A DNA stretch of 64,000 nt from a bacterium (GCA_030693205.1 JAUYBG010000010.1:130059-194058); one strand, 5' to 3'; positions 10,158-63,668 are shown, counted from the stretch's first letter. Notes: generated by a model not told the origin, from the sequence alone. Numbers and translations are program-made.

Positions 10158-10332
10158 TTGTTGCCACTTTATTTTAACAGAAAATAGACTTTTGTCAATC
10201 CCAGCACCAAATTCCGAAATAAGTATAACGTATAAATTAGTTAAGCATCTCGGTATCGCCTTCGGCTTACTTTATCTTAAAGGCAAGATTATCTAAAGAA
10301 TTGGTGCGGGACAAGCCCTTTTAAATGAGATA

Positions 10333-22578: not shown

Positions 22579-23623
22579 GGCTTAATAGTTAATTTGGGTG
22601 CCTAAAAACTTCAATTTATGGCATACTATAGATAAAAAGTTAATCTAATCTATAATTAATTTTAAATCTATAGTATGTCATTTAAAAAAAGTGTATATAT
22701 TGCGGCTGTTCCAAGGCAATTAAAAAGGGTAAAAGAAATGGAGTTTGGCGATATAAATGTTCTGTTTGTAACAAAAATTTTCAAAGCAAACGAAGAAAAT
22801 CCAGATTGCAGAATAAGCTTTGGAAAGAATATGTTTGCGGAAAACAAACCTTAAAAGATTTATCAGCCAAATATCATCGAGGTAAAAAATGGATAAATCG
22901 GCAATTAAATTCAGTAAAAATTTCTCCAAATGATTTGCCAAAACCTCAACCGATTGTAATCATCGCCGATGTCACTTTTTTTGAAAGAAGCTACGGAGTC
23001 GCGGTGATCAGAGAACCGAATTTAAAGAAAAATATTTATTGGAAAGAAGTATCAACAGAAACTCCGGAAATTTACTGGCAAGCCAGAACTCAAATCGAAC
23101 AGCTGGGTTTTATTCTAAAAGGAGCGGTAATCGACGGTAAAAGAGGCGTTAAAGAGGTGTTTTTGGATCTTCCGGTGCAGATGTGCCACTTCCATCAAAT
23201 AGCCATTATCAATCGATATTTAACCAGAAAACCAAAACTGGATGCGGGCAAGGAATTAAGAAAAATTACACTAACGCTAACCGATTCATCTGAAAAAAAA
23301 TTTACTGCCTTATTGGATAACTGGCATGAAAAATGGAAAGATTTTTTAAGAGAAAAATCATTCAATCCTGAAACTCAAAAATTGCATTACACTCACAAAA
23401 GATTAAGATCGGCCTTTCGAAGCTTAAAAACAAATCTGCTTTACCTTTTTACTTACCAAAAATATCCTGAATTAAAAATCCCAAATACTACCAATTCCTT
23501 AGACGGAACATTTTCCTATTTCAAAACTTTACTGAGAATTCATCGAGGAATGAACAAGACCAAAAGATACAAAGCAATATGCGAGATACTTAAAAATTAA
23601 GCACCCTAATTGACCATTAAACC
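22579..23623 (+). mobile_element. IS1-family insertion sequence, copy 1 (1045 bp) with 22-bp imperfect TIRs and an 8-bp TSD
   Basis: IRL ggcttaatagttaatttgggtg. IRR (reverse complement) ggtttaatggtcaattagggtg. Flanking direct duplication aaatttca on both sides. Second copy at 62623-63668. Confidence 0.75.
22686..23600 (+). CDS. IS1-family transposase (N-terminal CxxC...CxxC zinc finger fused to DDE domain); start ambiguous
   Basis: Frame is open from 22686. The zinc finger KKCIYCGCSK...RYKCSVCNKNFQ resembles IS1 InsA (CPxC...NGK...QRYxCxxCxxxFQ). No in-frame ATG/GTG, and the only TTG (22806) lies past the zinc finger. An ATG at 22675 sits in the +1 frame upstream of an A7 run (see findings). 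About 80% aa identity to the copy at 62647-63561. Confidence 0.7.
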   Translation, partial: KKCIYCGCSKAIKKGKRNGVWRYKCSVCNKNFQSKRRKSRLQNKLWKEYVCGKQTLKDLSAKYHRGKKWINRQLNSVKISPNDLPKPQPIVIIADVTFFERSYGVAVIREPNLKKNIYWKEVSTETPEIYWQARTQIEQLGFILKGAVIDGKRGVKEVFLDLPVQMCHFHQIAIINRYLTRKPKLDAGKELRKITLTLTDSSEKKFTALLDNWHEKWKDFLREKSFNPETQKLHYTHKRLRSAFRSLKTNLLYLFTYQKYPELKIPNTTNSLDGTFSYFKTLLRIHRGMNKTKRYKAICEILKN

Positions 23624-49062: not shown

Positions 49063-50145
49063 ATGAAAATTTCCAGCCAATTCAATAAATCATTGTTTTT
49101 TACCGTTACTCTGATCGTCGGAGGATTTCTTTTTATTACCATTATAGAAAAGGTCGGGGTTGAAAATATCATTAAAACCGTTTTAACCTTTCAACTCTGG
49201 CATTTTTTTGTCCTGGTGGCGCTAGGTATGATTTCGGCTCTTATTTCCACTACGCGCTGGAAACTTATCCTTGATGCTACGGGTAACACCACGCCTTTCG
49301 GAAAAGTTTTTACCGCCAGAATGATCGGCAACGCCATCAATTACCTTACCCCTTCCGGCTTATTGCTGGGCGAACCGTTCAAAGCAATGGTTCTTTCGGG
49401 AAAAACAGGATTAAGCTTGGGATCAACCATGTCTTCAGTCATAATCGAGGGGTCCATTTTTCTAAGCACTATGCTTCTGTTCATTATTGTCGGTATTTTG
49501 GCTTTTCTTTCCTATTCGGATGTTTCCCGGAAAATATTCGCCATCACTATCGGAACCTTGATCATTCTCCTGGGCGTTTTTTACCTTTTCTTTACCAAAA
49601 TGGTAAAACCATCCGGCACTGCAGCCGAAAAAGGCTTTTTTACCTACCTTATCGATCTCCTGCGTTTGCATAAAATTTCCTTTATCGACAGTTTGAAAAA
49701 TAAAATTATCCGCCGTGAAAATGAAATAAAAAACTTTTTCCAGCTCCACAAAAAAACGGTTTTTACCGCGATCTTCTTATCTGCTTTGGAAATAATGATT
49801 ACGCTTGCCGCCTCCTGGCTGACACTTTACTTTTTAGGCTTGATCGTCGAATTAAAAGCCCTGCTTGGACTTTTTTCTTTAATGAATATTTCCTATCTGG
49901 TCCCATTGCCCGGATCGCTGGGAGGGTTCGAACTTTCTCAAATCTTTGCTTTCGGATTTTTTAGCCTGGGCGGACAAGCTACCGCTCTGGCCTTTACTTT
50001 GATCACCCGCCTAACAAGCTTAGTACTTGTAGCGATAGGTATCGGCTATCTGATCCAGTTTGAGTTAATCGTCATTTTGAATAAAACCGCTGATTTTTCA
50101 ATCAAATTAAAACAAAAAATCAGAGGCTTTTTACAAAGCCTCTGA
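49063..50145 (+). CDS. Flippase-like (UPF0104 / lysyl-PG-synthase TM-region-like) membrane protein
   Basis: 360 aa, 8 TM. Conserved Arg-Trp (TTRWKLIL) after TM2 as in UPF0104. Confidence 0.5.
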   Translation: MKISSQFNKSLFFTVTLIVGGFLFITIIEKVGVENIIKTVLTFQLWHFFVLVALGMISALISTTRWKLILDATGNTTPFGKVFTARMIGNAINYLTPSGLLLGEPFKAMVLSGKTGLSLGSTMSSVIIEGSIFLSTMLLFIIVGILAFLSYSDVSRKIFAITIGTLIILLGVFYLFFTKMVKPSGTAAEKGFFTYLIDLLRLHKISFIDSLKNKIIRRENEIKNFFQLHKKTVFTAIFLSALEIMITLAASWLTLYFLGLIVELKALLGLFSLMNISYLVPLPGSLGGFELSQIFAFGFFSLGGQATALAFTLITRLTSLVLVAIGIGYLIQFELIVILNKTADFSIKLKQKIRGFLQSL

Positions 50146-50167
50146 AATTCCAAGCGCCTCTAACGCT

Positions 50168-50869
50168 TTATCGCTCAAATTTTGCCGAATTATAAACCAC
50201 GTTTCTTGCATAGATCTGAGCCATCTTACCGCCACCATTGTGTCTGGAAATGGCATAAAGCCTATCTATCTTATAACCATTGGTTATAAGATTTTTTACT
50301 GTCCACTCGGTTGAACATTCGAAATCCATAGCGCAGGCATCGGAAACTTTATGCAATTTGGTCTGAATGTGGTACCAGCCTCTGCTTTTGCCGCCGTCCC
50401 CGGTCATTGCTTTACCGTCAAAACTTTCTTTCTCGCGCATCGCTTTTAGATCCTGCCAGCAAGGCAAGGCATATATCCCGGCAGCTTCACAAATCTTTTT
50501 GGCTAGATTATTCTTTCCTTCTTCTGAAATAGCGGTAAATTCTTCTTCTGCAACCTTTTTAGTTAAAGTCAAAACAATAACTTTATTGACCTTGTTGCTT
50601 TTTTCTATTGCTGGTTTAACAGGAACCGCGACTGTCTTATAATTTTCTTTATTTTTGCTGTCCAAATCGGCAATATTAACAAAAGAAAGATTATTTTTCC
50701 CTAAAACAAGCGGTAAAACCTCTGCTTTTTCAGAAAAACTGAAATTAAAAACATTATTCTTGCCAATATTGCTTGCAAGCGCTACTTGAGGAAAAAACAA
50801 ACCGAGCGCTAAGCCTGCCAATGAAACAGTGGCTATTGACAATTCTACGATTTTATGGTATATACTCAT
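50168..50869 (-). CDS. Hypothetical secreted protein
   Basis: Signal peptide then a 200-aa domain. No confident motif. Confidence 0.4.
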   Translation of the reverse strand: MSIYHKIVELSIATVSLAGLALGLFFPQVALASNIGKNNVFNFSFSEKAEVLPLVLGKNNLSFVNIADLDSKNKENYKTVAVPVKPAIEKSNKVNKVIVLTLTKKVAEEEFTAISEEGKNNLAKKICEAAGIYALPCWQDLKAMREKESFDGKAMTGDGGKSRGWYHIQTKLHKVSDACAMDFECSTEWTVKNLITNGYKIDRLYAISRHNGGGKMAQIYARNVVYNSAKFER

Positions 50870-51102
50870 TTTAAATTATTGCGGACTAGTGTTGCTTAAT
50901 CCTTTATTAGAAACATTATTGGCCTTCCTGTGTTTAAGCTTAATTGAACCAATAAAAAAACAGCTTTTAAAAGCCTGTTATGCAACTATCAAGTATAGCA
51001 TATTATAGATTTTTGTCAAGAAGAAATAGGCATACACAAGGAAGGTAAAACTCAACAAAAAAGCAAAATTAAAAGGAGCTTAAAGCTCCTTTTAATTCAT
51101 AT

Positions 51103-51285
51103 TTAGTGGACCTAGACAGAATCGAACTGTCGTCTCCGCAATGCGAATGCGGCGTCTTACCACTGGACTATAGGCCCAAATCCGCTGAAAGCGGATTAAC
51201 CACATAACCAATAACCATAACTAATAACAATTTGGTTATCGGTTATAAGTTATCGATTATTAGTTATTTTGGTCGCAATTGCTGA
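51103..51285. repeat. Direct repeat A (~183 bp) containing tRNA-Ala and its 5' spacer hairpin; left boundary of the island
   Basis: About 97% identical to 59059-59236, with 4-5 differences that are partly compensatory within the spacer palindrome. Confidence 0.85.
51107..51177 (-). tRNA. tRNA-Ala (CGC), copy A
   Basis: Acceptor GGGCCTA with G3:U70, anticodon loop TTCGCAT, T-loop TTCGATT. No encoded CCA. Confidence 0.85.
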
Positions 51286-51607
51286 ACGAAGCTCGAACCT
51301 TTTTTGAACAAAAAATGCTTGATTAGCTCCGCTCCGCGTTTCCGCCCGCCGAACTTCGGCAAGCAAAGCAAAACAATTTTCTTTCAATTTTTTAACGCCC
51401 GCCCGCCAAATTTTTCTTAAAAGGAATTGAAAATTGTTTTGCTTTGATGTCTTGATACCAAGACGGCGGGAACGCTTCACTTCGGCTCGGGCGTGGCGGA
51501 ATTCCTCCCCCCAACCCCCTCCTTCCGCCACGCCCTCGCTCGGACTGCCCTTTTTTTCGGCGGAATTGGAGGCCGTGCCAATTTCATTGGCGCGCCGCCT
51601 CAAATTT

Positions 51608-53152
51608 TCAATCTTTTCTGTATCCTACACGAATTATCGGAATATATCCAGCATTAGCACATTGCCGTTGCCATTCGGCAATCTTTATTAAAAATATCAG
51701 TGATTTGATTTCCGATATTTTTTTTATTTCTGTCTGTCTATCAAAAATGAGCCAAAGACAAATTTCTTTTGGCTTTATTTCTTGATCATTGATTTGGATT
51801 GTTGATGTTTGACTTTGTAAAATTTTTATCGTAGCAAGGGCTTGGTCTACTACATACCCCAGTTTTTGCGGAGTGCCAATTTTTACAAAATATGCAACAT
51901 TATCTTTGTATAAATCCATTTTTTCTATTTTGTATTGCTGTTGAAGTGTTGCAATATCTCGATCTAAATTTTTGTAGCCTTCATTTTCTCGCAAAGAATT
52001 AAAATAATACTCGGCGTAGCCATGCGATGTTCTTTCTTTATCAGATAAGGCATTACGCCATTGTGTAAATGCTGAATTGGAAAAATTGATGTCAGAAATT
52101 TCGACTTTAATTCGCTCATCAATTTGTTTTTTTAAAAATTCAATATAATTTTGATTGAAAATGTGCCATTTGCCGTCAAGCAAAAAATGTCTATCATCAT
52201 CAACATAATCAAGAAAATATTTTAATGGTTTTGTATATCCTTTGTTATGCTCATCTGAAACTTTAACTTTGATGTCATTGATACTTGTCGTCAAATTTAT
52301 ATTTTGCTGATTAACAAAATTTCGGAGAGTAGCAAGATTAAGCTCTCCGTCAATGTCTTGACGCTGACGATTGAAAATAAAGCGATATTGATTTTTATCA
52401 AGAAATACAAAATCAACACCAGAAACTGTTGCCTCTGATGGTTGAAGCCCAGCATTTGTGCTATTTAAAATCTCCTGTGCTAACTTTTGATCTAATTCCG
52501 CAATTTTTGTTTCATCGTTTATGGTGGTAGCGCGTGGCAAAACAATTTTTGCTTCTTTCTGTAATTCTTCTTCGACAGATTTTATCAACTCCGGCAAGTC
52601 GTCAGGGATAATTTCAAGGTGTAATTGAGCAGAATTTCCAAAACTGCCAACCTCGCCCCATTTTTCATCATCTATTGTTTTTGCTTTTACATAGTGAATT
52701 GACTCGCCACTATCATATTCAAATTCACTATTTTCTTGATACGAAATAATTGTCTTGCTTTTCTTCCCGCCAAACAATTTTGAATTTTTAAGTTTTAGGT
52801 TGTTGTTATCTGCAATTCTCTCCGCAAGATTTATTCCAAAATCAGTATCACAAAAATCTTTTAGATAGAAATGCGACTTACCCATACTGATTGCATAAAG
52901 CAAAGAGGTATTTGAAATAAGAAAAATCGCAAAATATGCTTTATTTGTTAGCTTTTCATCGGTGCCAAGATATTCGGCATATAAATCCGTCCACCAAATA
53001 TCAATATCTTCTGGCTTTTTTGAGAGATAAAGCGAAAGAGTAAAATCATTTATTATTTTTTGACCGGAACGCGAAAGACCGACGGCTTCTAATTTTTCCA
53101 ATAAAGCCGCTTCTTTTGTTTTATCAATTTTGTAGATATTGTATTTCGCCAT
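51608..53152 (-). CDS. Hypothetical protein (514 aa), last gene of the island operon
   Basis: Good coding look, 4-bp gap to the upstream res gene. No recognisable catalytic motif. Confidence 0.5.
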   Translation of the reverse strand: MAKYNIYKIDKTKEAALLEKLEAVGLSRSGQKIINDFTLSLYLSKKPEDIDIWWTDLYAEYLGTDEKLTNKAYFAIFLISNTSLLYAISMGKSHFYLKDFCDTDFGINLAERIADNNNLKLKNSKLFGGKKSKTIISYQENSEFEYDSGESIHYVKAKTIDDEKWGEVGSFGNSAQLHLEIIPDDLPELIKSVEEELQKEAKIVLPRATTINDETKIAELDQKLAQEILNSTNAGLQPSEATVSGVDFVFLDKNQYRFIFNRQRQDIDGELNLATLRNFVNQQNINLTTSINDIKVKVSDEHNKGYTKPLKYFLDYVDDDRHFLLDGKWHIFNQNYIEFLKKQIDERIKVEISDINFSNSAFTQWRNALSDKERTSHGYAEYYFNSLRENEGYKNLDRDIATLQQQYKIEKMDLYKDNVAYFVKIGTPQKLGYVVDQALATIKILQSQTSTIQINDQEIKPKEICLWLIFDRQTEIKKISEIKSLIFLIKIAEWQRQCANAGYIPIIRVGYRKD

Positions 53153-53155
53153 AAT

Positions 53156-55510
53156 TTAGTTTAAATCCTCAAACTTCTTCCAATTCTTATCTAACTTACC
53201 CGGAATGTATTTATAATCTTTTGAATCGTTATAATGCCAAATTCCACCCTCTTTTAAAACTATCCCGCCTACAAAATTTTTACCAAGCTCTTTTAATTTT
53301 TCTGCTAAAGCCGGTGCCCGACCCTCGGTGTCGGTAGCAGTTCTTCCGCTCTTTGTATCAAAAATGCCAACCTTGCCGTCTTTGAATTTTATAATCCAAT
53401 CGGGATAGAAAAGAGAAAATTTTTGATCGGCAGTATTGAAGTATTTTATCGCAAAATATTCTTGGCCGATTTCTTGTTTAAACCACCAGTCAATTTTATT
53501 TTTCTTGCCATCAATATAACTGATAAATTCAGTTTCATTTGGTTTTCCGTCATATTCTTTTCTTATGTAAAAATTTTCTAAAACATTAAGCGTCACAGAC
53601 GAATTTTCATAATCTTCTGTATAACTATAACTTTCTTGAATAGTAAAAATTGGAGCTTCCTTTTCCTCGCCCTTTTTCGCTCTTTCAGCCAATATCTTTT
53701 CTAAAATTGGTCTATAATTTTTTAGGGAATGTGTAAGGGCTGGACGAAAAACGCTAGTTGCACCTTTTTGTATATCCTTTATAAAAACACGATAATAGTA
53801 ATCACAATTTTCACCTAAAACGCTTTTGAACCAAACTCTAACCGCCTTTTTCAACGGACTCCAAGATCGAGCAATGTTCGTTATTTTTGCCTTATCTTCC
53901 GTTTGTTCTTTCAGTAGTTGGAAACATAAATAATTAAAAGTTTTTTCAACATCATTTTGGGACATTTCCAAAGATACATCATGTCCTTTTTTCTGGAATT
54001 CAAAATTGATTCTGTCGTAATCTTCAAATTGTGCGTCAACAATTATCTGGTTAGTAATTGAAGAATCTAAATCAAATCCTTTTTTGGATAGTTTTTTTTC
54101 CGCTTTTCCAAAGATATCATCTTTATCAATTACAAAATAACTATTCATTGATTTGATAAAACTTGCTTGAAATTTTGCGGAATTACTTAAATCTCCATAA
54201 TCAACGCGCGAAACATAAGCAGATTGAAGTTGGATATTCTTTATTCCCTTTTTTCTTTTTGAAATATAAACTGCCGGTTTATTTTGTGTTTTATCAATCC
54301 AATTGTCGGTTATGTCTTTTCTGTTGTAGTTTGTGTATAGGTAACCAATTCTTAAATTTGGGCTACTTTTATAATCTTCTTTCAGATTTGGCTCTGGCAT
54401 TCTCAAAATTCTGCCAACTGTTTGGATATAACGCTGTTCAACTCTAACATTTCTAAACATCACTAACACATGAGCGCGCGGGCAATCCCAACCTGTGCCA
54501 GCGGCAAGTTTAAAGAGTAAAATATCATAATCGTCTTCGTTATCCTCGATTCCATCCGGTTTAGGAAATTTATCAAACCATCGCCCTATCTTATTTTCTT
54601 TTATCCCCTTCTTTTTTAAATAGTCGCTTGTTATTTGTTCTTTTGTTTTCTCGCCTACCTGCACGCGTTCTTTGTCGTCATTCGGCAGTTGAATAAGTAG
54701 TAAGGGATTAACTTTTTTGCCAAGTTTTTCAAATTCCTCTTTCAACTCCTCTCTTTTTGCTAAACCAATATCTAAAAGCGCTTCGTCCAAATCTTTACCT
54801 TGAAATTTAGGCAAATCTTCTTTTGTTTGGGTAACAATTTTTTCTTTTATCAATCCTTCTGCAACGACTCGCTTTCTATCAACATCAACAAATCCGCCAT
54901 CTCTTCTCGCGATTAATTCGATTTCATCATTGGGCGTTGCTGAAATGTGGACAACGATTTTTGGATCAATATAATCCACAATTTGTTGAGCCAACTCAGT
55001 TTTTACATGGGTATGTGCCTCGTCAATAATTAAAATTATTGCCCTGCCATTCTTTTTGGTCCCATCAATAAAGTCCTCAAAATATTTACCGCTTTCTTTC
55101 CGCATGTTCTCATCATCTGGTCTTCGCAAAATCCTACTCTCGGCTGATTTTGCAGAAACTTTTTGCCAATTCAGAAACAAAATATCATTTTTAAACATTT
55201 TGCCTCTGTTAATGTTATTTACGGTTAGCAAATTATTTTCAAGCGTATTTTCAAAATATTCTTCAAATTTTTTCTTGCTTTGCATTGCAAGATCATCGCT
55301 AAAAGTAATCCAAACAAATGCCTTATCCATATCCCAGTTAGGTAATTTATTAAGACCACGGACAAAATGCGCCATCATAAAAGTTTTACCGCTTCCTGTT
55401 GGCGATTTGAAAACTAAAGGCAATTGCTTGCCGTCTTTTTTCCATAGCTCCGTAAGAGTAAAAAGCAATTTGTCTATGGTATCTCTTTGAAATGGTAAAG
55501 GATTGAACAT
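53156..55510 (-). CDS. res: Type III restriction enzyme Res subunit (SF2 helicase + C-terminal PD-(D/E)xK nuclease)
   Basis: Walker A SPTGSGKT, DEAH box IIDEAHT, motif VI QTVGRILR. C-terminal YPDW...IFDTKSG nuclease motif. Confidence 0.8.
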   Translation of the reverse strand: MFNPLPFQRDTIDKLLFTLTELWKKDGKQLPLVFKSPTGSGKTFMMAHFVRGLNKLPNWDMDKAFVWITFSDDLAMQSKKKFEEYFENTLENNLLTVNNINRGKMFKNDILFLNWQKVSAKSAESRILRRPDDENMRKESGKYFEDFIDGTKKNGRAIILIIDEAHTHVKTELAQQIVDYIDPKIVVHISATPNDEIELIARRDGGFVDVDRKRVVAEGLIKEKIVTQTKEDLPKFQGKDLDEALLDIGLAKREELKEEFEKLGKKVNPLLLIQLPNDDKERVQVGEKTKEQITSDYLKKKGIKENKIGRWFDKFPKPDGIEDNEDDYDILLFKLAAGTGWDCPRAHVLVMFRNVRVEQRYIQTVGRILRMPEPNLKEDYKSSPNLRIGYLYTNYNRKDITDNWIDKTQNKPAVYISKRKKGIKNIQLQSAYVSRVDYGDLSNSAKFQASFIKSMNSYFVIDKDDIFGKAEKKLSKKGFDLDSSITNQIIVDAQFEDYDRINFEFQKKGHDVSLEMSQNDVEKTFNYLCFQLLKEQTEDKAKITNIARSWSPLKKAVRVWFKSVLGENCDYYYRVFIKDIQKGATSVFRPALTHSLKNYRPILEKILAERAKKGEEKEAPIFTIQESYSYTEDYENSSVTLNVLENFYIRKEYDGKPNETEFISYIDGKKNKIDWWFKQEIGQEYFAIKYFNTADQKFSLFYPDWIIKFKDGKVGIFDTKSGRTATDTEGRAPALAEKLKELGKNFVGGIVLKEGGIWHYNDSKDYKYIPGKLDKNWKKFEDLN

Positions 55511-55512
55511 AA

Positions 55513-57204
55513 TTAGTTAGTACTAATATTATAAATTTGCTTATATATTTCTAAAATCGGCAGAGGAATTGTTTTAATTTTTATTTGTTCTATATCGTCA
55601 AATTCTTCAATTTCTGCCTCATCTCCCCAGCTAAAAATATAAACCGCCGTTTGCTTTTTTAATTTCTTAATCATTTCTGCAAATTCATCAAACTTATCTA
55701 ATTCTTCGCGGAAATATACAGCAGTATATTTTTCTTTATTTCCATCCTTAAATAATTGATAAAATTTATTCTGTTTTGTTAGCTCTAAAGTGTTTTCAGC
55801 AATCGCTAATAATTCACCGGCATTGTGTGCAAGTTCAATTTTATCTTGATCGGTTGCGTTTAGGATATTGTTTTTACCAATGAAGGCGGCTTTATAATAC
55901 TTGAGCGAATTGCCAAGAGCGTTATATTTTTCTTTCTGTTTATTTGTATATCCGCTTATTACCCTTTTAATTCTTGGATAGCAAACACCTTTTAAAATAT
56001 TATTTTCATTGTTAGTTATTAAAATGAATTGCCTCTCTCCCTCATCTTCGGTATTAAGCTCTAATAAAGCCTGACCAGTAGTCCCCGAGCCAGCAAAAAA
56101 ATCTAATATTATTATTTTTTTATTTAAAACCGTATCCAAGAGAGTCTTTATAAGTCCAACCGGCTTTGGATATTCAAATTTATCTTCGAGATCAAACTTT
56201 CCAAGATCATTTTTGCCAACTTCCGACAAATACCCTTGGATTATCGTGTACATGACTTGTCGCATACTTCCCACTTCTTCTGATCTGCAAATATAATGCA
56301 TTCCGTTCTTTGCTTTTTTTAAAATATACTCACCATCAGCCAATTTTTTATCAACTTCGTCTTTTATCTTTTTACCTTTGTACTTCAAAAGATTTTCATA
56401 CTCGCATCTTCTTTCTGTTCCTTTTTTATATTTTCCAAAAACGCGACGAATCACATCGTCATTAATAAAATAAAGTTTCCCTTCTTTCATTAAATACCTG
56501 TCTTTAACTTTTCCAGATTGAAACTTCCGAATATGCTCGATTGCCTTATCGCCTTTTTGGGTTAAAGTGAGATCGTCACTATTTGAATAACAAAGTACAT
56601 AATCGTGACCCCTTACAACCTTCTTTGAATTGCCACCGCCCTTTGCTCTTTGCCAAATCAAGGTACCCATGAACCCCTTGCCAGAAGTGTTGCTAAAAAT
56701 ATCATCCATCAATAGTTTTAGTTGAGCCAATTCATTATCATCAATTGAAACAAAAATTATTCCTTCTTCGCTTAATAAATCTTTAGCTAATTCAAGACGC
56801 TTCCGCATAAAAGAAAGCCAATAACTGTGACGGAATGGATGATCTTTCGGGACCTCCGTTCCATCAGGAAATTTATCTAAAATTCTTTTGTCTTTATAGC
56901 GAAAACCATCAGAACCAGTATTGTATGGCGGATCAATATAAATAACATCAATTTTCCCTTTGTGAGTGTAATTTAGACAGGTTAAAGCGTGATAATTGTC
57001 GCCTTCAATTAAAATATGAGTTGGCTTGCCATCATTGTTTTTTATAGCAAGCTCCGGCACCTCTTTAAGAATTGGTAATTTATTTTCAACATCGTCTTCA
57101 AACGCTTCAGGAACATCCATCCAAACTAAACCATAGCGCTGTTTTTTTACAGATTTTTTTAATCTTTCTATTTCCTTTTTTAGTTTTAAAATTTCTTCGC
57201 TCAT
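55513..57204 (-). CDS. mod: Type III RM Mod subunit (beta-class N6-adenine MTase)
   Basis: DVIYIDPPYNTG (motif IV) precedes ILDFFAGSGTTGQA (motif I). 3-bp gap to res. Confidence 0.85.
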   Translation of the reverse strand: MSEEILKLKKEIERLKKSVKKQRYGLVWMDVPEAFEDDVENKLPILKEVPELAIKNNDGKPTHILIEGDNYHALTCLNYTHKGKIDVIYIDPPYNTGSDGFRYKDKRILDKFPDGTEVPKDHPFRHSYWLSFMRKRLELAKDLLSEEGIIFVSIDDNELAQLKLLMDDIFSNTSGKGFMGTLIWQRAKGGGNSKKVVRGHDYVLCYSNSDDLTLTQKGDKAIEHIRKFQSGKVKDRYLMKEGKLYFINDDVIRRVFGKYKKGTERRCEYENLLKYKGKKIKDEVDKKLADGEYILKKAKNGMHYICRSEEVGSMRQVMYTIIQGYLSEVGKNDLGKFDLEDKFEYPKPVGLIKTLLDTVLNKKIIILDFFAGSGTTGQALLELNTEDEGERQFILITNNENNILKGVCYPRIKRVISGYTNKQKEKYNALGNSLKYYKAAFIGKNNILNATDQDKIELAHNAGELLAIAENTLELTKQNKFYQLFKDGNKEKYTAVYFREELDKFDEFAEMIKKLKKQTAVYIFSWGDEAEIEEFDDIEQIKIKTIPLPILEIYKQIYNISTN

Positions 57205-57206
57205 AT

Positions 57207-58166
57207 TTATTTTATTAAATCCTCAATTGACTCATTAAAACGAATAAAAACATCATGTTCACCCAAACTCCTCTTGGCGCGGCTTACTTCCTCGCCACCC
57301 AACATTGAAACCACTTCGCACTCGCCATTGTGCTTACTATCCCACAAAAAATAGCACACTCCACCCTTAATTTCTACTCCGGGAAAACAATCTTCAGCGT
57401 TAGGGTGATCCACTAAAACTTTAAGTCTTTTGTCAGACAACATTCTGGCCCGAAAATCATTTAATCCCATACCGCCAGCAAACCATCTTGACGGAACAAT
57501 CATTGAAAGATAACGAGGATTAAGCTCCATCGCTGTTTCTATAAATTTTTGATAAATAGGCGTTGCTTGTGCGCCTACACCACCAGTATCTAATTGATAT
57601 GGAGGATTTCCAACAATGACATCAAATTTCATATTATTAAATAAATTATTTAAATGAATAAATTGATAAGCGTGACCTTCCAAACTTTCGCCTCTGCTTT
57701 GTATGCTTTCGGCGGCGCCGCAATAAATACATTTTTTATTTTCAAAAGTGTGTTTAATATTTTCATAAATGATATTGCCTTGTTCATTTTCAAATTTGAC
57801 GACAGAGTGCTTGCTGTTAGCCGACTTTGAATAATACAAAGATCTCCGAGACATTAAGCTGGTAATATCGGTGATTGCCAAACCATAAAGCATGTTTTTA
57901 AAAATATGCTCCCGTCTTTTGTTTTCATCCGGTATGGCTTTTTCCAACCCAGCCATCAATCTTTTGGCGCATTCACGCAAAAATATACCAGTCTTACAGG
58001 CAGGATCCAAGAATTTTAAATCAGGATTTTGCCAAACTTTGTCAGGCAAGAGATTAAGAATATTATTTGCAAGTTGCGGCGGTGTAAAAACTTCATCGCT
58101 GCTAAGATTAGCAATGCAATCTAAAATATCGGGCATTCTTTTTTTAAAAATATTATTTACGAGCAT
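57207..58166 (-). CDS. Gamma-class N6-adenine DNA methyltransferase (TaqI/Eco57I-like core)
   Basis: EVFTPPQLANNIL...FLDPACKTGIFL (X/I) and DVIVGNPPYQ (IV). Confidence 0.75.
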   Translation of the reverse strand: MLVNNIFKKRMPDILDCIANLSSDEVFTPPQLANNILNLLPDKVWQNPDLKFLDPACKTGIFLRECAKRLMAGLEKAIPDENKRREHIFKNMLYGLAITDITSLMSRRSLYYSKSANSKHSVVKFENEQGNIIYENIKHTFENKKCIYCGAAESIQSRGESLEGHAYQFIHLNNLFNNMKFDVIVGNPPYQLDTGGVGAQATPIYQKFIETAMELNPRYLSMIVPSRWFAGGMGLNDFRARMLSDKRLKVLVDHPNAEDCFPGVEIKGGVCYFLWDSKHNGECEVVSMLGGEEVSRAKRSLGEHDVFIRFNESIEDLIK

Positions 58167-58771
58167 AGTTTTAAATAATTACAGATTTTATAGTTCTTAA
58201 GAGGTTTTTGGGTATTAAACAAGGTATTAAATTCGTTTTTATTTTTTAATTGATCTGTTAATCTAAATTCTTGTCTTTTTAAATTTGGTCTTTTGCCAAC
58301 CGCATTATATTCGACCAAAATAATATCTTGAATTTTGTTCAGCATATCCCCAACAATAACATTTCTTTCCAATATCCAGTTTATTGAATTATAAAACCCC
58401 TCATTCGGCTTTTTAGTGTTAAACTTATATGAATAAAAATTCTTTATTTCATTAAGCATTCGCTCTCTCGCCTCTAAAACATTTTCTTCCGATATATCAA
58501 CGCCATAAATAGAAGCTACCGCTTTAACAACATAAAACTCGACATCAATTTGATTTTTATATTTCGCTTTAACTGTATCCAGCTTTCTTTTTAAAATAGC
58601 TACTAAAAAATTACCATTACCGCAAGACGGTTCCAGCAAGGTATTTTCGATATTTTCCGAAAGATATTTCACAAGATCTAGCATGGCATTCACTTCTTTG
58701 TCTGCGGTAAACACCTCAGCCAAATCTCGCACTCTTTCTTTAGATTTTATTATATTGGAAATATTCGCCAT
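58157..58771 (-). CDS. MTase-like paralog with degenerate motif IV (NPPY replaced by DMLN)
   Basis: Motif I EVFTADKEVNAML...LEPSCGNGNFL is conserved. The position aligned to DVIVGNPPYQ reads NVIVGDMLNK. Overlaps the next gene by 10 bp. Confidence 0.5.
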   Translation of the reverse strand: MANISNIIKSKERVRDLAEVFTADKEVNAMLDLVKYLSENIENTLLEPSCGNGNFLVAILKRKLDTVKAKYKNQIDVEFYVVKAVASIYGVDISEENVLEARERMLNEIKNFYSYKFNTKKPNEGFYNSINWILERNVIVGDMLNKIQDIILVEYNAVGKRPNLKRQEFRLTDQLKNKNEFNTLFNTQKPLKNYKICNYLKLCS

Positions 58772-59058
58772 ACTCTTATTTAATTAAATCATTAACACCG
58801 ACCTCAAGCGCTTTGGCGATTTTGGTCAGCGTTTCGATTGTTGGGTTCTGATTAACACCATTTTCAATTTTTACGATAGTATTGATCGATAAATCAGCAA
58901 GACGAGTTTTTATTGCTTTAATATTGTAATAATAGCTAATTTTAACGATTTTGTAAATAAAAATAGACCGTCTTGTGAACGGCTATCTTGAAAGAGATAA
59001 ATCTCGCTTGCAAAGGAGAGAGTAAGGAATGAGCCTCCGAACGAGGCTTTAAATCAAT

Positions 59059-59236
59059 TTTAGTGGACCTAGACAGAATCGAACTGTCGTCTCCGCAATG
59101 CGAATGCGGCGTCTTACCACTGGACTATAGGCCCAAATCCGCTGAAAGCGGATTAACCACATAACCAATAACTCATAACTAATAACAATTTGATTATCGG
59201 TTATGAGTTATCGATTATTAGTTATTTTGGTCGGGG
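59059..59236. repeat. Direct repeat B containing tRNA-Ala copy B and the spacer hairpin, abutting the tRNA-Pro 3' end
   Basis: See 51103-51285. Confidence 0.85.
59064..59134 (-). tRNA. tRNA-Ala (CGC), copy B (identical to copy A)
   Basis: Same sequence as 51107-51177. Confidence 0.85.
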
Positions 59237-59301
59237 TACTGGGAATCGAACCCAGTCTACATCCTCCCGAAGGACGCGTACTACCGGTATACTATACCCC
59301 G
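59229..59301 (-). tRNA. tRNA-Pro (CGG), CCA encoded
   Basis: C1:G72 acceptor CGGGGTA/TACCCCG, anticodon loop TTCGGGA, T-arm CTGGG-TTCGATT-CCCAG. Confidence 0.8.
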
Positions 59302-59325: not shown

Positions 59326-60837
59326 TCATTTTACACCAAAACGGCTCTTCTCCGCAAGCTCCACCTCCTCTTTTTTTTCTTCAATGACTTCCAAGCTTTT
59401 AGCTTTTAACTTATCCGGGCTTAACTTGGATAGTTCCTTAACTCTTCCGGTTAAATATTTTTTCGTATTCAGTTTCGGATCTTCCAGCACTTCCGCCAGC
59501 AAAACATTTAATATCGCGCCGATTATCGGGCTTGGCTTGATCTTAAGGATTTTTATTATATCATTGCCGTTTAGTTTAAGCATTTTTACGGAAATAGGAT
59601 CCCGGGAAACCTTATCAATGAGATATTCCAAATGCCTTAATTTATAAGGCTTGGCTTTGGGCACGCCGCTGCCCAAGCGATCGGCAATTCGGAGGTCAAT
59701 CAAATCTTTCAAATTTTCTTTTCCCGCTCTTTTTATCAATCGGCGAATGCCGGCTTCGCTCACTTCGTCCACATTATAGAAAAACATATGATTCCTGACC
59801 AAATGGCTGGTTTTCTCGATAGCTTCATTGGAAAATTTCAGTCGGGACAAAATTCTCTTAACCGCGTTTGCCCCCATAATATCATGGTTGTAAAAAGTAG
59901 CATCCAACCCTGCGCCTCTTTTAGCTTCAGGCTTGGCAATATCATGAAAAAGCGCCGCCAATCGCACTTCGAGCTTTTCACTCGGGCAATATTTCAGCGA
60001 GAGGATCGCATGCTCATAGATCGTATAGATATGGTGGCGATTTTGGCTTACACCAATGCCTTTTTCCAGCTCCGGTACAATATATCCCAAAAGTCCGGTT
60101 TCTTTCAGAAGTTCAACCCCTTCGGCCGGATATTCGGATAAAATTATCTTCGTAAATTCATCTCTGGTCCTTTCCAACGAAATCATCGCCATAGACTTAG
60201 AATGTTTTTTTATGGCGTTAAAGGTTTTTTCCTCGATTTTCCAGGAAAGCGGAGACAACTTGTCCTTAAAATCTTTATCCGCCAGCTGGCGGATTTTTCC
60301 CCCGACCGAACTAAGCTGGCAAGCAAACCGGATCGCCCGCGCGAGGCGCAAAGCATCTTCGTTAAATCTTTGGTCCGGATCGCCTACCGCCTTTATTATT
60401 TTTTTCTCAATATCTTCCGCTCCGCCAAAAGGATCGATAGTTTTCCCTTTAGCATTCATGGCAATCGCATTGATAGTAAAATCGCGGCGAGCCAGATCAT
60501 CTTCCAGCTTCCCGACGAATTCAACTTTTTCCGGCCAGCGCTTGTCCCGATAAGCGCCTTCGGTGCGGTAAGTAGTGATCTCAATTTCTTTTAGCGATTC
60601 TTTTTTTGCGCCCGTGACCGCTGTCACAGTACCGAATTTATTATTGCAAAAATTATGGGGAAAAATCTTCTGAATCTCTTCCGGCCTGGCATTGGTGGTA
60701 ATATCCCAATCATGCGGTCCGCCAGCTGGCGGATTTCCGGTCAATAAATCCCTAACGCACCCGCCGACGACAAAAGCCTCGAATCCGCCGGATTCAAGTT
60801 TTTTAATTATTGATTTTACTTCTGTGGGAATTTTCAT
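59326..60837 (-). CDS. cca: CCA-adding enzyme / tRNA nucleotidyltransferase with C-terminal HD domain
   Basis: GGCVRDLLTG...DWDITT head motif. HD region HDIAKP. Confidence 0.8.
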   Translation of the reverse strand: MKIPTEVKSIIKKLESGGFEAFVVGGCVRDLLTGNPPAGGPHDWDITTNARPEEIQKIFPHNFCNNKFGTVTAVTGAKKESLKEIEITTYRTEGAYRDKRWPEKVEFVGKLEDDLARRDFTINAIAMNAKGKTIDPFGGAEDIEKKIIKAVGDPDQRFNEDALRLARAIRFACQLSSVGGKIRQLADKDFKDKLSPLSWKIEEKTFNAIKKHSKSMAMISLERTRDEFTKIILSEYPAEGVELLKETGLLGYIVPELEKGIGVSQNRHHIYTIYEHAILSLKYCPSEKLEVRLAALFHDIAKPEAKRGAGLDATFYNHDIMGANAVKRILSRLKFSNEAIEKTSHLVRNHMFFYNVDEVSEAGIRRLIKRAGKENLKDLIDLRIADRLGSGVPKAKPYKLRHLEYLIDKVSRDPISVKMLKLNGNDIIKILKIKPSPIIGAILNVLLAEVLEDPKLNTKKYLTGRVKELSKLSPDKLKAKSLEVIEEKKEEVELAEKSRFGVK

Positions 60838-62622: not shown

Positions 62623-63668
62623 AGGTTTAATAGTAAATTTGTGAGGCTATTTCTTAAGTATTTCACATATCATCTTGTATCTTTTAGCTCTACTCATTCC
62701 TCGATGAATTCTCAACAAGGTTTTGAAATAGGAAAATGTTCCGTCTAAAGAATTGGTAGTATTGGGGATTTTTAATTTAGGATATTTCTGGTAAGTAAAA
62801 AGATAAGGCAAGTTTGTTTTTAAACTTCGATAGGCTGATCTTAATCTTTTGTGAGTGAAATATAGTCTTTGAGTTTCAGGATTGAATGATTTTTCTTGCA
62901 AAAAATCTTTCCATTTTTCATGCCACTTATTCAGTAATTCAGTAAATTCTTTTTCATTTGAAGTAGTCAATGATAAAGCAATGCTTCTTAACTCTTTACC
63001 TGCATCCAGTTTTGGTTTTCTGGTTAAATACCGATTGATAATAGCCACCTGATGAAATTGGCACATCTGCACAGGAAGATCCAGAAATACCTCTTTAACC
63101 CCTCTTTTACCGTCAATTACCACTCCTTTTAGAGTAAATCCTTGCTGTTCAATCTGAGTTCTTGCTTTCCAATAAATATCCGGAGTTTCAGTTGATACTT
63201 CTTTCCAATAAATATTTTTCTTTAAATTCGGTTCTCTAATTGCCACAACTCCATAGCTTCTTTCAAAAAAAGTAACATCGGCAATGATTACAACCGGTTG
63301 AGGATTTGGTAAATTATTAGGAGAAATTTTAACTGAATTTAATTGCTGGTTTATCCATTTCTTGCTTCTGTGATATTTTTCTGATAAATCTTTTAGAGTT
63401 TGTTTTTTACAAATATATTCTTTCCAAAGTTTATTTTGTAATCGGATTTTTCTTCGCTTGCTTTGAAATTGCAATCCGCATTTTGTGCATTTATATCGCT
63501 GTACCAGTCGAAATTTTCCATTCTTTTTTACATAACCGTTGCCGCATTTTGGACACTTTTTTTAAATGACATACTATAGATTTAAAATTAATTGTAAATT
63601 AAGTTAACTTTTAATCTACAGTATGCCATAAATTGAAGTTTTTAGCATCACAGATTTACTATTAAGCC
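62623..63668 (-). mobile_element. IS1-family insertion sequence, copy 2 (1046 bp, diverged)
   Basis: TIRs ggtttaatagtaaatttgtgagg (62623-62645) and cacagatttactattaagcc (63649-63668). No clear TSD. Confidence 0.75.
62647..63561 (-). CDS. IS1-family transposase, copy 2; start ambiguous
   Basis: Zinc finger KKCPKCGNGYVKKNGKFRLVQRYKCTKCG plus DDE region. Same AUG plus A7 arrangement (ATG at 63572..63570, A7 at 63563..63557) with the ORF in the -1 frame. Confidence 0.7.
   Translation of the reverse strand, partial: KKCPKCGNGYVKKNGKFRLVQRYKCTKCGLQFQSKRRKIRLQNKLWKEYICKKQTLKDLSEKYHRSKKWINQQLNSVKISPNNLPNPQPVVIIADVTFFERSYGVVAIREPNLKKNIYWKEVSTETPDIYWKARTQIEQQGFTLKGVVIDGKRGVKEVFLDLPVQMCQFHQVAIINRYLTRKPKLDAGKELRSIALSLTTSNEKEFTELLNKWHEKWKDFLQEKSFNPETQRLYFTHKRLRSAYRSLKTNLPYLFTYQKYPKLKIPNTTNSLDGTFSYFKTLLRIHRGMSRAKRYKMICEILKK

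What the first reader, a model, noticed from the sequence alone, without database searches (positions are those of the whole stretch)
51103..59236. 7.8-kb island bounded by ~180-bp direct repeats that each contain a complete tRNA-Ala(CGC) plus its 5' spacer hairpin
Repeat A (51103-51285) and repeat B (59059-59236) are about 97% identical. Each comprises a full tRNA-Ala gene and about 110 bp of palindromic spacer that in copy B runs into the 3' end of tRNA-Pro. Read on the minus strand the structure is tRNA-Pro, spacer, tRNA-Ala, five co-oriented genes, spacer, tRNA-Ala, terminator. The genes are an MTase-like paralog, a gamma-class MTase, Type III Mod, Type III Res and a 514-aa unknown. Repeat A ends on the shared ttggtcg, which corresponds to the last nucleotides (including the CCA end) of tRNA-Pro. 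No integrase or recombinase is present, so this is not a conventional tRNA-integrating element. It looks like a cassette inserted or duplicated through homologous exchange in the tRNA-Pro/tRNA-Ala operon, carrying a composite restriction/defence module.
Basis: partly seen in the sequence, partly recalled or inferred. Interest (0 to 1): 0.7.

Follow-up and report, generated by a model that had tools for sequence, protein, structure and literature searches.

The report
Recombinase-less restriction cassette in tRNA operon
A 7.8-kb foreign DNA-restriction (defence) gene cassette sits inside a tRNA-Pro/tRNA-Ala operon of a Patescibacteria genome, bracketed by a 185-bp duplication that keeps a whole tRNA-Ala on each side; the event type is known, but the cassette belongs to a recurring family with a conserved non-coding end and no recombinase of its own.

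Summary
Two direct repeats (51091-51275 and 59048-59233; 180/186 identical, longest exact run 114 nt) each carry the last 6 nt of tRNA-Pro, a ~93-nt hairpin spacer, a complete tRNA-Ala(CGC) and ~15 nt more. They bracket 7.77 kb of low-GC DNA (34% vs ~40%).

The insert encodes a decayed HTH controller gene, a truncated MTase paralog, an Eco57I-family gamma MTase, Type III Mod and Res, and a DUF6119 protein. It ends in a 332-nt GC-rich non-coding block.

A related species (L059) has the same flanking genes without the island, so it is an insertion.

New here:
- The GC-rich block plus DUF6119 recur behind other R-M systems in unrelated hosts.
- In L066 the same layout sits at a tRNA-Ala(GGC) 3' end with an exact 15-bp direct repeat and no integrase.
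- In L063 the block flanks the cassette as inverted copies.

The island is therefore a non-autonomous mobile R-M cassette, inserted at tRNA 3' (CCA) ends. It is a CPR example of the known "R-M insertion with long target duplication". The catalyst is unknown. DUF6119 looks like a CYTH-like plus PD-(D/E)xK nuclease, not a classical recombinase.

Interest is moderate.

The parts
59228..59301 (-). tRNA-Pro(CGG), first gene of the tRNA operon. Its last 6 nt (CGACCA) start repeat B.
   Evidence: ARAGORN; Rfam tRNA 56 bits. Conserved downstream of the CCA-adding enzyme gene in L004, L005, L058, L059 and L060.
59048..59233 (-). Direct repeat B (proximal): tRNA-Pro 3' end, 93-nt spacer (25-nt-arm palindrome plus a small hairpin), tRNA-Ala, ~15 nt.
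   Evidence: the repeat finder D1/D2; alignments. Spacer variants of copy B are also seen next to tRNA-Pro in the independent Logan contig L001.
59063..59134 (-). tRNA-Ala(CGC), copy B.
   Evidence: Identical over the tRNA (a 75-nt 100% match that spans it) to the single tRNA-Ala of L060/L061; 93.5-95.2% over 84-93 nt to L058.
58926..59047 (-). Left (proximal) non-coding end of the island. It starts with hairpin GCCTC-GTTCG-GAGGC just after the tRNA-Ala 3' end.
   Evidence: Read directly. Similarity to the left end of the L066 island is only marginal: local alignment reached by 43-71 of 1000 shuffles.
58776..58925 (-). HTH (XRE / C-protein type) gene remnant: no start codon, N-terminal ~26 residues missing. 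A pseudogene.
   Evidence: Translation. 53% identity over 43 aa to residues 27-69 of the intact 69-aa HTH_3 protein that opens the L066 cassette, E 1e-15.
58157..58771 (-). 204-aa MTase-like paralog: motif I (EPSCGNGNF) only, no NPPY. Probably inactive.
   Evidence: PADLOC MTase_II N-terminal part, 5.7e-13. Pfam hits only below the cut-off.
57207..58166 (-). 319-aa Eco57I-family gamma-class N6-adenine MTase (DPACKTG ... NPPY). No obvious target-recognition domain.
   Evidence: Pfam Eco57I 2.7e-34; PADLOC MTase_II / type IIG MTase region ~1e-28.
55513..57204 (-). Type III Mod (beta-class MTase; DPPY and FAGSGTT motifs).
   Evidence: PADLOC MTase_III 1.5e-76; Pfam N6_N4_Mtase 1.3e-32.
53156..55510 (-). 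Type III Res: SF2 helicase motifs GSGKT and DEAH, with a C-terminal PD...DTK nuclease motif.
   Evidence: Pfam ResIII 8.8e-21; PADLOC REase_III 5.8e-17. Motifs read in the translation.
51608..53152 (-). DUF6119 / TIGR04141 protein, 514 aa. Predicted CYTH/TTM-like N-terminal part and PD-(D/E)xK-like C-terminal nuclease domain. Recurrent last gene of R-M operons.
51276..51607 (-). Conserved GC-rich (51%) non-coding right end of the island ('X'). It has a 13-bp hairpin with a G-rich 21-nt loop, a long AT hairpin and a conserved terminal ~45 nt (...GGTTCGAGCTTCGTTCAGCAATTGCG). Homology stops exactly where repeat A begins.
   Evidence: blastn/nhmmer to L063 (two copies), L066-68 and L057, E 1e-8 to 1e-104. 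Alignment. Hairpin folds. No Rfam family.
51091..51275 (-). Direct repeat A (distal): same content as B, followed by the host terminator.
51106..51177 (-). tRNA-Ala(CGC), copy A.
51066..51098 (-). Intrinsic terminator of the tRNA operon (host side).
   Evidence: Terminator scan. Downstream DNA 50002-51028 is syntenic with L059 2932-4026.

Best explanation
The segment 51276-59047 is a horizontally acquired, non-autonomous mobile restriction-modification/defence cassette, inserted into the tRNA-Pro(CGG)-tRNA-Ala(CGC) operon of a Patescibacteria genome.

What it does (inferred from domains):
- Type III Mod/Res methylates and restricts DNA.
- An extra Eco57I-family adenine MTase adds a second methylation specificity, or is left over from an earlier R-M.
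- DUF6119 is an accessory nuclease-type effector that travels behind many R-M systems.
- The HTH controller gene has decayed.

How it got there, shown steps:
- The island is an insertion relative to related genomes.
- Its right end is a conserved 332-nt structured non-coding element. With DUF6119, that element also terminates cassettes carrying different R-M systems in unrelated hosts.
- In one of those hosts the cassette sits at the CCA end of tRNA-Ala(GGC) with a 15-bp direct repeat and no recombinase gene.
- In the window, the left end follows the 3' end of tRNA-Ala. The right end is joined to CGACCA, the CCA-type end of tRNA-Pro.

How it got there, inferred steps:
- The family inserts site-specifically at tRNA 3'-end cores (C[C/G]ACCA plus an A/T-rich tail), using a recombinase supplied in trans or an unrecognised activity.
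- In this genome two such cores lie 180 nt apart, one after tRNA-Pro and one after tRNA-Ala.
- Either a recombination involving the upstream core gave the element a copy of spacer plus tRNA-Ala, which then re-integrated site-specifically or by RecA across the 185 bp, or the insertion itself duplicated the interval.
- The result keeps an intact, promoter-linked tRNA-Ala upstream and the original tRNA-Ala plus terminator downstream, so no tRNA function is lost.
For: Repeat and tRNAs.

Foreign composition: 34% GC against ~40% in the flanks, with the right end at 51%.

Empty site and synteny:
- L059 has the CCA-enzyme gene, tRNA-Pro and tRNA-Ala region, then 387 nt later the homolog of window 50002-51028. 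The window has 8.2 kb between the same anchors.
- L058 and L060 carry a single tRNA-Ala. The L060/L061 copy is identical over the tRNA; L058 matches at 93.5-95.2%.

The locus is a hotspot:
- L004 has a Type I R-M, Schlafen and KAP island at the same place.
- L005 has serine and tyrosine recombinases, Xis-like HTH proteins and an HsdR-like gene right after tRNA-Ala.

Family evidence:
- The right-end element is conserved in L063 (two copies), L066-68 and L057.
- L066 has tRNA-Ala(GGC)...CCACCATATTGAATT / HTH / R-M / DUF6119 / X / CCACCATATTGAATT, an exact 15-nt repeat 6745 bp apart.
- The HTH remnant is 53% identical to the L066 HTH.
- DUF6119 is always the last gene behind R-M or defence genes.

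No recombinase in the island or the window.

Literature: R-M insertions with 76-397-bp target duplications and no mobility genes, Type III included, are documented (PMC2853133).
Against: - No recombinase that could act in trans was identified, and only 64 kb of the genome was visible.
- The family rests on few loci: window, L066-68 (one insertion seen in three samples), L063 and L057.
- Left-end similarity between the window and L066 is only marginal (p about 0.04-0.07).
- L063 has no tRNA nearby and carries the end element as inverted copies. L057 has it inverted next to tRNA-Ala. The element is therefore not tied to one simple att geometry.
- The end element is absent behind DUF6119 in L062, L064, L069 and L070.
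- A 185-bp repeat is far longer than the 15-bp repeat of L066 and needs an extra step.
- Independent phasing of the two repeat copies is lacking.
Confidence: 0.55

Rival explanations
1. Recombinase-independent insertion, essentially the first reader's idea. Foreign DNA from a close relative entered by natural transformation or similar. It was fixed either by homology-facilitated illegitimate recombination or by RecA-mediated single crossover of a circular intermediate over the spacer/tRNA-Ala homology. Alternatively the poorly understood 'insertion with long target duplication' route seen for R-M genes produced the 185-bp repeat. No site-specific enzyme is involved.
For: - No recombinase gene in the island or the window.
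- The repeat length (185 bp) and the content (R+M genes, insert under 20 kb) match the published criteria and range (46-397 bp, Type III included) for such insertions.
- 185 bp with a 114-nt exact run is enough for RecA.
Against: - It does not explain why the right-end homology to L063/L066 stops exactly at the repeat boundary.
- It does not explain why that boundary is a tRNA CCA-type end in the window, L066 and L057.
- It does not explain the exact 15-bp att-like repeat in L066.
Confidence: 0.3
2. Decayed conventional tRNA-integrating island. The element once encoded a tyrosine integrase whose attP carried the whole 3' part of the operon, as in elements whose att homology spans an entire tRNA gene. 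The int gene was later deleted.
For: - L005 has recombinase genes directly next to the orthologous tRNA-Ala.
- The HTH gene at the proximal end is degenerate, so the island has suffered decay.
- Integration involving whole tRNA sequences is reported (PMC2853133 text).
Against: - The L066 cassette has the same organisation from tRNA end to right end, an intact HTH, and no space for an integrase.
- In the window only ~270 nt separate tRNA-Ala(B) from the first MTase, and the right end is intact.
- No integrase fragment was detected.
Confidence: 0.1
3. Self-mobilising cassette. DUF6119 (nuclease fold), together with the conserved structured end element acting as DNA site or RNA, is itself the insertion machinery that targets tRNA 3' ends.
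For: - DUF6119 and X are the only parts shared by cassettes with different R-M cargo, and they lie at the element end, as recombinase genes usually do.
- X keeps 51% GC in a 34% GC island and has a hairpin whose stem differs between copies while the G-rich loop is conserved.
- PD-(D/E)xK folds occur in transposition proteins such as TnsA (own knowledge).
Against: - DUF6119 occurs behind R-M systems without X and without tRNA linkage (L062, L064, L069, L070).
- No precedent, and no strand-transfer domain.
Confidence: 0.1
4. Assembly or population artefact. The sample holds an empty chromosomal site plus a circular or otherwise arranged copy of the island. Alternatively, two strains are present and the assembler threaded them into one path.
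For: - The same six junctions would arise from a circle [spacer-tRNA-Ala-island] plus an empty site.
- The copies share a 114-nt exact run.
- Logan unitigs break at the repeat and give no phasing.
Against: - The X-to-spacer junction and a second spacer allele (3 differences) must exist physically.
- A 196-kb NCBI contig spans the region.
- A 7.9-kb circle without replication genes is unlikely to persist. Even this scenario implies the same mobile element.
Confidence: 0.07

Closest known systems
R-M gene insertion with long target duplication (Nobusato et al. 2000; Furuta, Abe & Kobayashi 2010, PMC2853133)
   Same: - R and M genes, an insert under 20 kb and no mobility gene.
- Flanking direct repeats far longer than transposon or att repeats. 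Published repeats are 46-397 bp and include Type III systems in Campylobacter.
- The repeat preserves the interrupted gene or operon.
- Low-GC insert.
- R-M units flanked by long inverted repeats (as in L063) are also described there.
   Different: - Here the duplicated target is a tRNA operon segment containing a complete tRNA gene.
- The host is a CPR/Patescibacteria bacterium.
- The insert has a conserved non-coding end and an accessory gene (DUF6119) shared with cassettes in other genomes, one of which has a short 15-bp repeat. Such conserved ends were not a feature of the published cases.
tRNA-gene-targeting integrative islands (tyrosine-integrase elements; crossover in the anticodon loop, T-loop or 3' CCA end; own knowledge, Williams 2002)
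   Same: Insertion at a tRNA 3' end, a direct repeat beginning in the tRNA 3' end, the tRNA kept intact, foreign composition, defence cargo, and an empty site in relatives.
   Different: - No integrase or excisionase.
- The repeat starts in the last 6 nt of one tRNA and runs through the next complete tRNA.
CIMEs / integrase-less satellites flanked by att sites (cis-mobilisable elements of streptococcal ICEs; own knowledge)
   Same: Flanked by att-like repeats, devoid of recombination genes, and presumably dependent on a recombinase in trans.
   Different: No cognate ICE/IME or matching integrase was identified. The conserved structured 332-nt end has no counterpart in CIMEs.
Defence-island hotspots next to tRNA genes
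   Same: The same locus carries different defence cargo in relatives: Type I R-M, Schlafen and KAP in L004; a recombinase-bearing element with an HsdR-like gene in L005.
   Different: The duplication of the tRNA itself.

Membership tests
Type III restriction-modification system | Mod: beta-class N6-adenine MTase (DPPY then FxGxG) of the Type III family. | tested here: met
   PADLOC MTase_III 1.5e-76 and Pfam N6_N4_Mtase 1.3e-32. Motifs IDPPYNTG and FFAGSGTTG read.
Type III restriction-modification system | Res: SF2 helicase-type ATPase plus C-terminal PD-(D/E)xK endonuclease, encoded directly downstream of mod. | tested here: met
   Pfam ResIII 8.8e-21, Helicase_C weak; PADLOC REase_III 5.8e-17. 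GSGKT, DEAH and PD...DTK read. mod ends at 55513 and res starts at 55510.
Type III restriction-modification system | Methylation and ATP-dependent cleavage activity. | not testable with these tools
   Needs methylome or biochemical data.
R-M insertion with long target duplication (criteria of PMC2853133) | The insert contains both R and M homologs, is under 20 kb, and has no other mobility gene. | tested here: met
   7.77-kb insert with Mod, Res and MTases. No integrase or transposase.
R-M insertion with long target duplication (criteria of PMC2853133) | Flanking direct repeat longer than 30 bp that is single-copy at the empty site of a related genome. | tested here: inconclusive
   185-bp repeat. 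Relatives have one tRNA-Ala and the same flanking genes (L059, L058, L060), but their spacers differ. No same-species empty site was available.
Integrase-mediated tRNA-integrating genomic island | Tyrosine (or serine) recombinase gene within the element, usually next to the tRNA. | tested here: not met
   No such domain in any island ORF. tblastn with the L005/L069 recombinases finds nothing in the window.
Integrase-mediated tRNA-integrating genomic island | Direct repeats made of the tRNA 3' portion, with an intact tRNA at one junction. | tested here: met
   Unusually, the repeat holds 6 nt of tRNA-Pro plus all of tRNA-Ala.
HTH - R-M - DUF6119 - X cassette family (defined here) | DUF6119 as last gene, followed by the conserved ~330-nt GC-rich element whose homology ends at the insertion boundary. 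| tested here: met
   nhmmer 1e-79 for the window copy. Boundaries compared.
HTH - R-M - DUF6119 - X cassette family (defined here) | Boundary next to a tRNA CCA-type end, with a direct repeat of that end. | tested here: met
   Window X|CGACCA (tRNA-Pro end). L066 X|CCACCATATTGAATT with the repeat at the tRNA-Ala(GGC) end. L057 X|CCACCAAAAATAA..., inverted. Not met in L063, which has no tRNA.
CIME-type att-flanked non-autonomous element | A cognate autonomous element with the same att site and a recombinase. | not tested
   Collection scans were exhausted. Viral contigs hold neither X nor DUF6119 and plasmids hold no X.

The most novel reading that the evidence does not exclude
DUF6119 (CYTH-like plus PD-(D/E)xK nuclease) and the conserved 332-nt structured end element together form a previously unrecognised, integrase-independent insertion module. 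It carries interchangeable R-M systems into tRNA 3' (CCA) ends across phyla. The 15-bp, 24-bp (inverted) and 185-bp flanking repeats are variable-length footprints of that mechanism.
Probability: 0.1. Interest if true: 0.8.

Novelty: new variant of a known kind. Interest (0 to 1): 0.45.

Why it matters
- How R-M systems move without mobility genes has been an open question since the 'long target duplication' cases were described. A cassette family with a conserved, structured non-coding end and a constant accessory nuclease, found at tRNA CCA ends in unrelated bacteria, gives that question a concrete, testable substrate.
- It shows that tiny CPR genomes use the tRNA-Pro/tRNA-Ala locus as a defence-gene exchange point.
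- It assigns a first structural hypothesis to DUF6119/TIGR04141, a widespread uncharacterised R-M companion.
- If the mechanism is simply trans-acting integrases plus RecA, the case is an ordinary defence island with an unusually long repeat.

Tried and rejected
- Rfam on the island and on L066/L063 gave no family for the GC-rich end element or the spacer, only tRNAs and sub-threshold noise.
- X as a protein-coding ORF was rejected. The 117-aa and 129-aa ORFs share only a 40-aa stretch that follows from DNA conservation, and the copies differ by large indels.
- I first thought the HTH gene was cut by the insertion junction. Rejected: the left end extends about 120 nt beyond it, and the gene is degenerate rather than cut at the boundary.
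- I first read L057 as the empty site of the L004 species. Rejected: its 'terminator hairpin' is the tRNA-flank core plus an inverted copy attached to an inverted X end.
- Left-end (Y) homology as firm family evidence was downgraded. It is only marginally above shuffles.
- Foldseek against PDB for DUF6119 gave nothing meaningful.
- No papers on DUF6119/TIGR04141 function were found.
- Viral-contig scans for X and for DUF6119, and a plasmid search for X, were all negative. Plasmids hold only two distant DUF6119 homologs in Bacillus.
- A literature check of the recalled 182-bp HP1 att homology found no usable paper, so it is not used as evidence.
- The metagenome scan with the tRNA-Ala 5' half returned only one contig, L057.

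Full report
OBSERVATION.

ARAGORN finds tRNA-Ala(CGC) at 51106-51177 and 59063-59134, and tRNA-Pro(CGG) at 59228-59301, all on the minus strand. Rfam agrees.

The repeat finder and pairwise alignment give direct repeats at 51091-51275 (A) and 59048-59233 (B).
- They are 185/186 nt long and 180/186 identical.
- The three differences inside the high-identity part (two substitutions, one 1-nt indel) lie in the first ~60 nt of the spacer.
- The next 114 nt are identical. They cover the small hairpin, the whole tRNA-Ala and CTAAA.
- The last ~12 nt are only about 75% alike.

Read on the minus strand, each repeat starts CGACCA. In copy B these are the last six bases of tRNA-Pro. No comparable repeat exists elsewhere in the window.

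The order on the minus strand is:
- tRNA-Pro, spacer, tRNA-Ala(B);
- about 120 nt of non-coding DNA;
- an HTH gene remnant;
- a 204-aa MTase-like ORF;
- a 319-aa Eco57I-family MTase;
- Mod (563 aa), Res (784 aa) and DUF6119 (514 aa);
- a 332-nt GC-rich non-coding block;
- spacer, tRNA-Ala(A) and a strong intrinsic terminator.

GENE CONTENT.

- Mod and Res are a complete-looking Type III pair. Mod scores PADLOC MTase_III 1.5e-76, and Res scores ResIII 8.8e-21 and REase_III 5.8e-17. The DPPY/FxGxG, GSGKT/DEAH and PD...DTK motifs are visible in the translations.
- The 319-aa protein is a gamma-class adenine MTase of the Eco57I family (2.7e-34) without an obvious recognition domain.
- The 204-aa protein keeps only the SAM-binding motif region and is probably a dead paralog.
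- Upstream of it lies a controller-type HTH remnant. It is 53% identical to residues 27-69 of an intact 69-aa HTH_3 protein from L066, but has no start codon and no N-terminal helices.
- The 514-aa protein is DUF6119/TIGR04141. No paper in the library addresses its function.
- An AlphaFold model from 35 homologs (pLDDT 79) has no Foldseek match in the PDB.
- E410, D413 and K424 are invariant across the family.
- I therefore read DUF6119 as a nuclease-type effector with a possible nucleotide-binding N-terminal domain. This is inference.
- In eight other contexts its gene is always the last one behind R-M or defence genes. These are Type III in L062, AlwI-type IIS in L063 and L066-68, MmeI-like plus SMC, AAA and a protease in L064/65, Eco57I R-M in Jettenia (L070-72), and a position beside a divergent Type III system in L069.

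THE ISLAND IS AN INSERTION AT A HOTSPOT.

The organism is a Patescibacteria bacterium. Its CCA-adding enzyme is 71-87% identical to those of other CPR MAGs.

In L059 (83%) the CCA-enzyme gene and tRNA-Pro align to window 60839-59230. The homolog of window 51028-50002 (233-aa gene promoter, LPG synthase, YfhO and so on) starts only 387 nt after tRNA-Pro. In the window the gap is 8.2 kb.

L058 (85%) and L060/61 (84%) have tRNA-Pro followed after 2-6 nt by a single tRNA-Ala. In L060/L061 it is identical to the window's over the tRNA (a 75-nt 100% match spanning the 72-nt gene). L058 matches at 93.5-95.2%.

The island is 34% GC against ~40% for its flanks.

The same position holds other cargo in relatives:
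- L004 carries an HTH remnant, an HsdR-like gene, Schlafen/AlbA_2, an HsdM-S fusion, a KAP NTPase and an IS.
- L005 carries a large serine recombinase, an XerC/D-like tyrosine recombinase, two excisionase-type HTH proteins and an HsdR-like gene.

THE KEY NEW RESULT: A CONSERVED RIGHT END.

The 332-nt block between DUF6119 and repeat A is 51% GC in a 34% GC island. It is homologous to non-coding DNA behind DUF6119 in other contigs:
- L063 at 10277-10492, with a second, inverted copy at 3340-3006 on the other side of that R-M cassette;
- L066 at 6459-6800, with L067/L068 carrying the same insertion;
- the last 60 nt of L057, in inverted orientation.

nhmmer E-values run from 1e-8 to 1e-104.

All copies end with ...TTYGYTCAAAA.RGGTTCGR..TTCGTYCA....., and homology stops there. 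What follows the end differs by locus:
- in the window, the next bases are CGACCAAAAT, which is the start of repeat A and the tRNA-Pro end;
- in L066, they are CCACCATATTGAATT;
- in L057, they are CCACCAAAAATAATTTATCGCCTT.

In L066 the same 15-mer, CCACCATATTGAATT, occurs exactly once more, 6745 bp upstream. There it forms the 3' end, including CCA, of a tRNA with anticodon loop ATGGCAT (Ala-GGC). Between the two copies lie only HTH_3, RadC/Dam MTase, the AlwI endonuclease, an N6_N4 MTase, DUF6119 and the conserved end. There is no recombinase.

So the same architecture, with a different R-M cargo, is bracketed by a short att-like repeat at a tRNA-Ala CCA end.

The end element contains a hairpin whose stem sequence differs between copies while the G-rich loop is conserved:
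- window: GGGCGTGGCGGAA / TTCCGCCACGCCC;
- L063 and L066: GCAGGCGRGYAAAA / TTTTGCCC.C.TGC;
- loop: GGAAGGGGGG.CTGGGGRARGGAA.

RNAalifold suggests further long-range pairing, but four sequences are too few to test it. Rfam has no matching family.

Left-end similarity between the window and L066 exists: TCCAC..A.ATTGA.TTA..GCCTCG.TCGG.GGCT. It is statistically marginal, being reached by 43-71 of 1000 shuffles.

MECHANISM.

Shown:
- It is a foreign insertion.
- It has a conserved element end.
- The ends abut tRNA 3' ends.
- No recombinase is encoded in the island or in the 64-kb window.

Inferred: the family inserts at tRNA 3'-end cores of the type C[C/G]ACCA plus an A/T-rich tail. In this genome tRNA-Ala has no encoded CCA (CCAC|TAAA). 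The tRNA-Pro end plus the spacer does read CGACCAAAAT. The island's left end follows tRNA-Ala, as in L066, while its right end is joined to the tRNA-Pro-type core.

Three routes give the observed P-sp-A-[island]-sp-A-T:
- (a) Recombination between the right junction and the upstream tRNA-Pro core produced an element that carries spacer plus tRNA-Ala. It then re-integrated, site-specifically or by RecA across 185 bp.
- (b) An unequal sister-chromosome exchange between those sites was followed by loss of one element copy.
- (c) The insertion itself duplicated a long target, the route proposed for R-M genes by Nobusato et al. and Furuta et al.

The Furuta paper lists R-M insertions with 46-397-bp duplications and no mobility genes, including Type III systems with 107-208-bp repeats. 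It also describes R-M units flanked by long inverted repeats (PMC2853133).

I cannot separate these routes from sequence alone. The three differences between the copies all fall in the unconstrained spacer, so they carry no information on the crossover point.

The functional consequence is clear from the sequence. The promoter-proximal copy B keeps the operon intact. Copy A keeps the host terminator. No tRNA is lost.

CAVEATS.

- L063 and L057 show inverted geometries that a simple att model does not explain.
- The X element is absent behind more distant DUF6119 genes.
- Short-read data cannot by themselves distinguish the integrated form from a circle plus an empty site. The Logan unitigs break at the exact run.
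- In favour of the integrated form, a 196-kb NCBI contig spans the locus, and the X-to-spacer junction and a second spacer allele must physically exist.

VERDICT.

However, it is not a one-off homologous exchange.

It is a CPR member of the known class 'R-M insertion with long target duplication', and at the same time a member of a recurrent cassette family with the layout HTH, variable R-M, DUF6119, conserved structured end. That family targets tRNA CCA ends without an encoded recombinase, which makes it a new variant of a known kind.

Interest is moderate (0.45). The most novel reading is that DUF6119 plus the end element is the insertion machinery. The evidence does not exclude it, but it is unlikely (about 0.1).

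Noticed in passing
L004 11842-12026; L057 2124-2308; L059 2620-2850; L005 ~1843-2055: In four related genomes the window-type tRNA-Ala(CGC) is split in its anticodon loop by a 116-150-nt insert. The insert holds a different, complete tRNA-Ala(CGC).
- The insert's two flanks pair with each other. L004 and L059 have CCCTGTTAAA/TTTAACAGGG. L005 has CCCGCC-GTA-GCCGT / GCGGC-GTA-GGCGGG.
- The L004 RNA folds as a cloverleaf within a cloverleaf (z -3.4).
- The outer halves are 100% window-like in L004. In L059 they are decaying, with GC-rich hairpins inserted in the D-loop and T-arm. In L005 they have two stem mismatches and one compensatory pair.
- The likely reading is a tRNA gene disrupted by a small tRNA-carrying insertion that replaces it.
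- This is not mentioned in the recent paper on Patescibacteria tRNA introns (PMC13011429).
   Followed up: partly
L057 2296-2415: The sequence after the tRNA-Ala nest is a perfect palindrome with 24-nt arms and an 8-nt centre. It consists of the tRNA 3' flank (CCACCAAAAATAATTTATCGCCTT) and its inverted copy, joined to an inverted X end. This implies an inverted cassette, or an inversion at the att core, in a strain of the L004 species.
   Followed up: partly
L063 3006-3340(-) and 10277-10492(+): Two copies of the X element in inverted orientation bracket an AlwI-type R-M plus DUF6119 cassette in a GC-rich host with no tRNA nearby. Each copy is followed outward by a promoter-like TTGAC/TATAAT pair. 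The right copy lacks the ~95-nt AT-rich hairpin module.
   Followed up: partly
window 59135-59227 and 51178-51269: The 93-nt tRNA-Pro/tRNA-Ala spacer is absent from the closest relatives, where the gap is 2-6 nt (L058, L060), and is unrelated to the spacers of L004, L005 and L059. It is a 25-nt-arm imperfect palindrome with an 8-nt centre, built from ATAAC-type repeats, plus a small GC hairpin. Its start (ACCAAAATAAC...) resembles the tRNA-Ala flank/core of L057. It may be a relic of an earlier insertion.
   Followed up: no
L004 2657-2722 and 9416-9460: The motif ACCCTGTTAAA / TTTAACAGGGT that flanks the inner tRNA-Ala also forms a hairpin directly upstream of tRNA-Leu(GAG). It occurs again near tRNA-Val in the same genome. 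It is a repeated tRNA-associated palindromic motif of unknown role.
   Followed up: no
window 22618-22681 and 63566-63629: Two 64-nt copies (75% alike) of a sequence whose ends are inverted repeats (ATGGCATACTATAGAT ... ATCTATAGTATGTCAT). Possibly a small palindromic repeat element.
   Followed up: no
window 27750-28035; 1137-1268 and 1845-1976: A run of ~69-72-nt tandem-like repeats inside the 622-aa ORF on the minus strand, and a 132-nt direct repeat (86%) spaced 708 nt apart near the window start.
   Followed up: no
window 59326-60837 and relatives: The CCA-adding enzyme gene lies directly upstream of the tRNA-Pro/tRNA-Ala pair in all close relatives. Their tRNA genes mostly lack an encoded CCA.
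   Followed up: no
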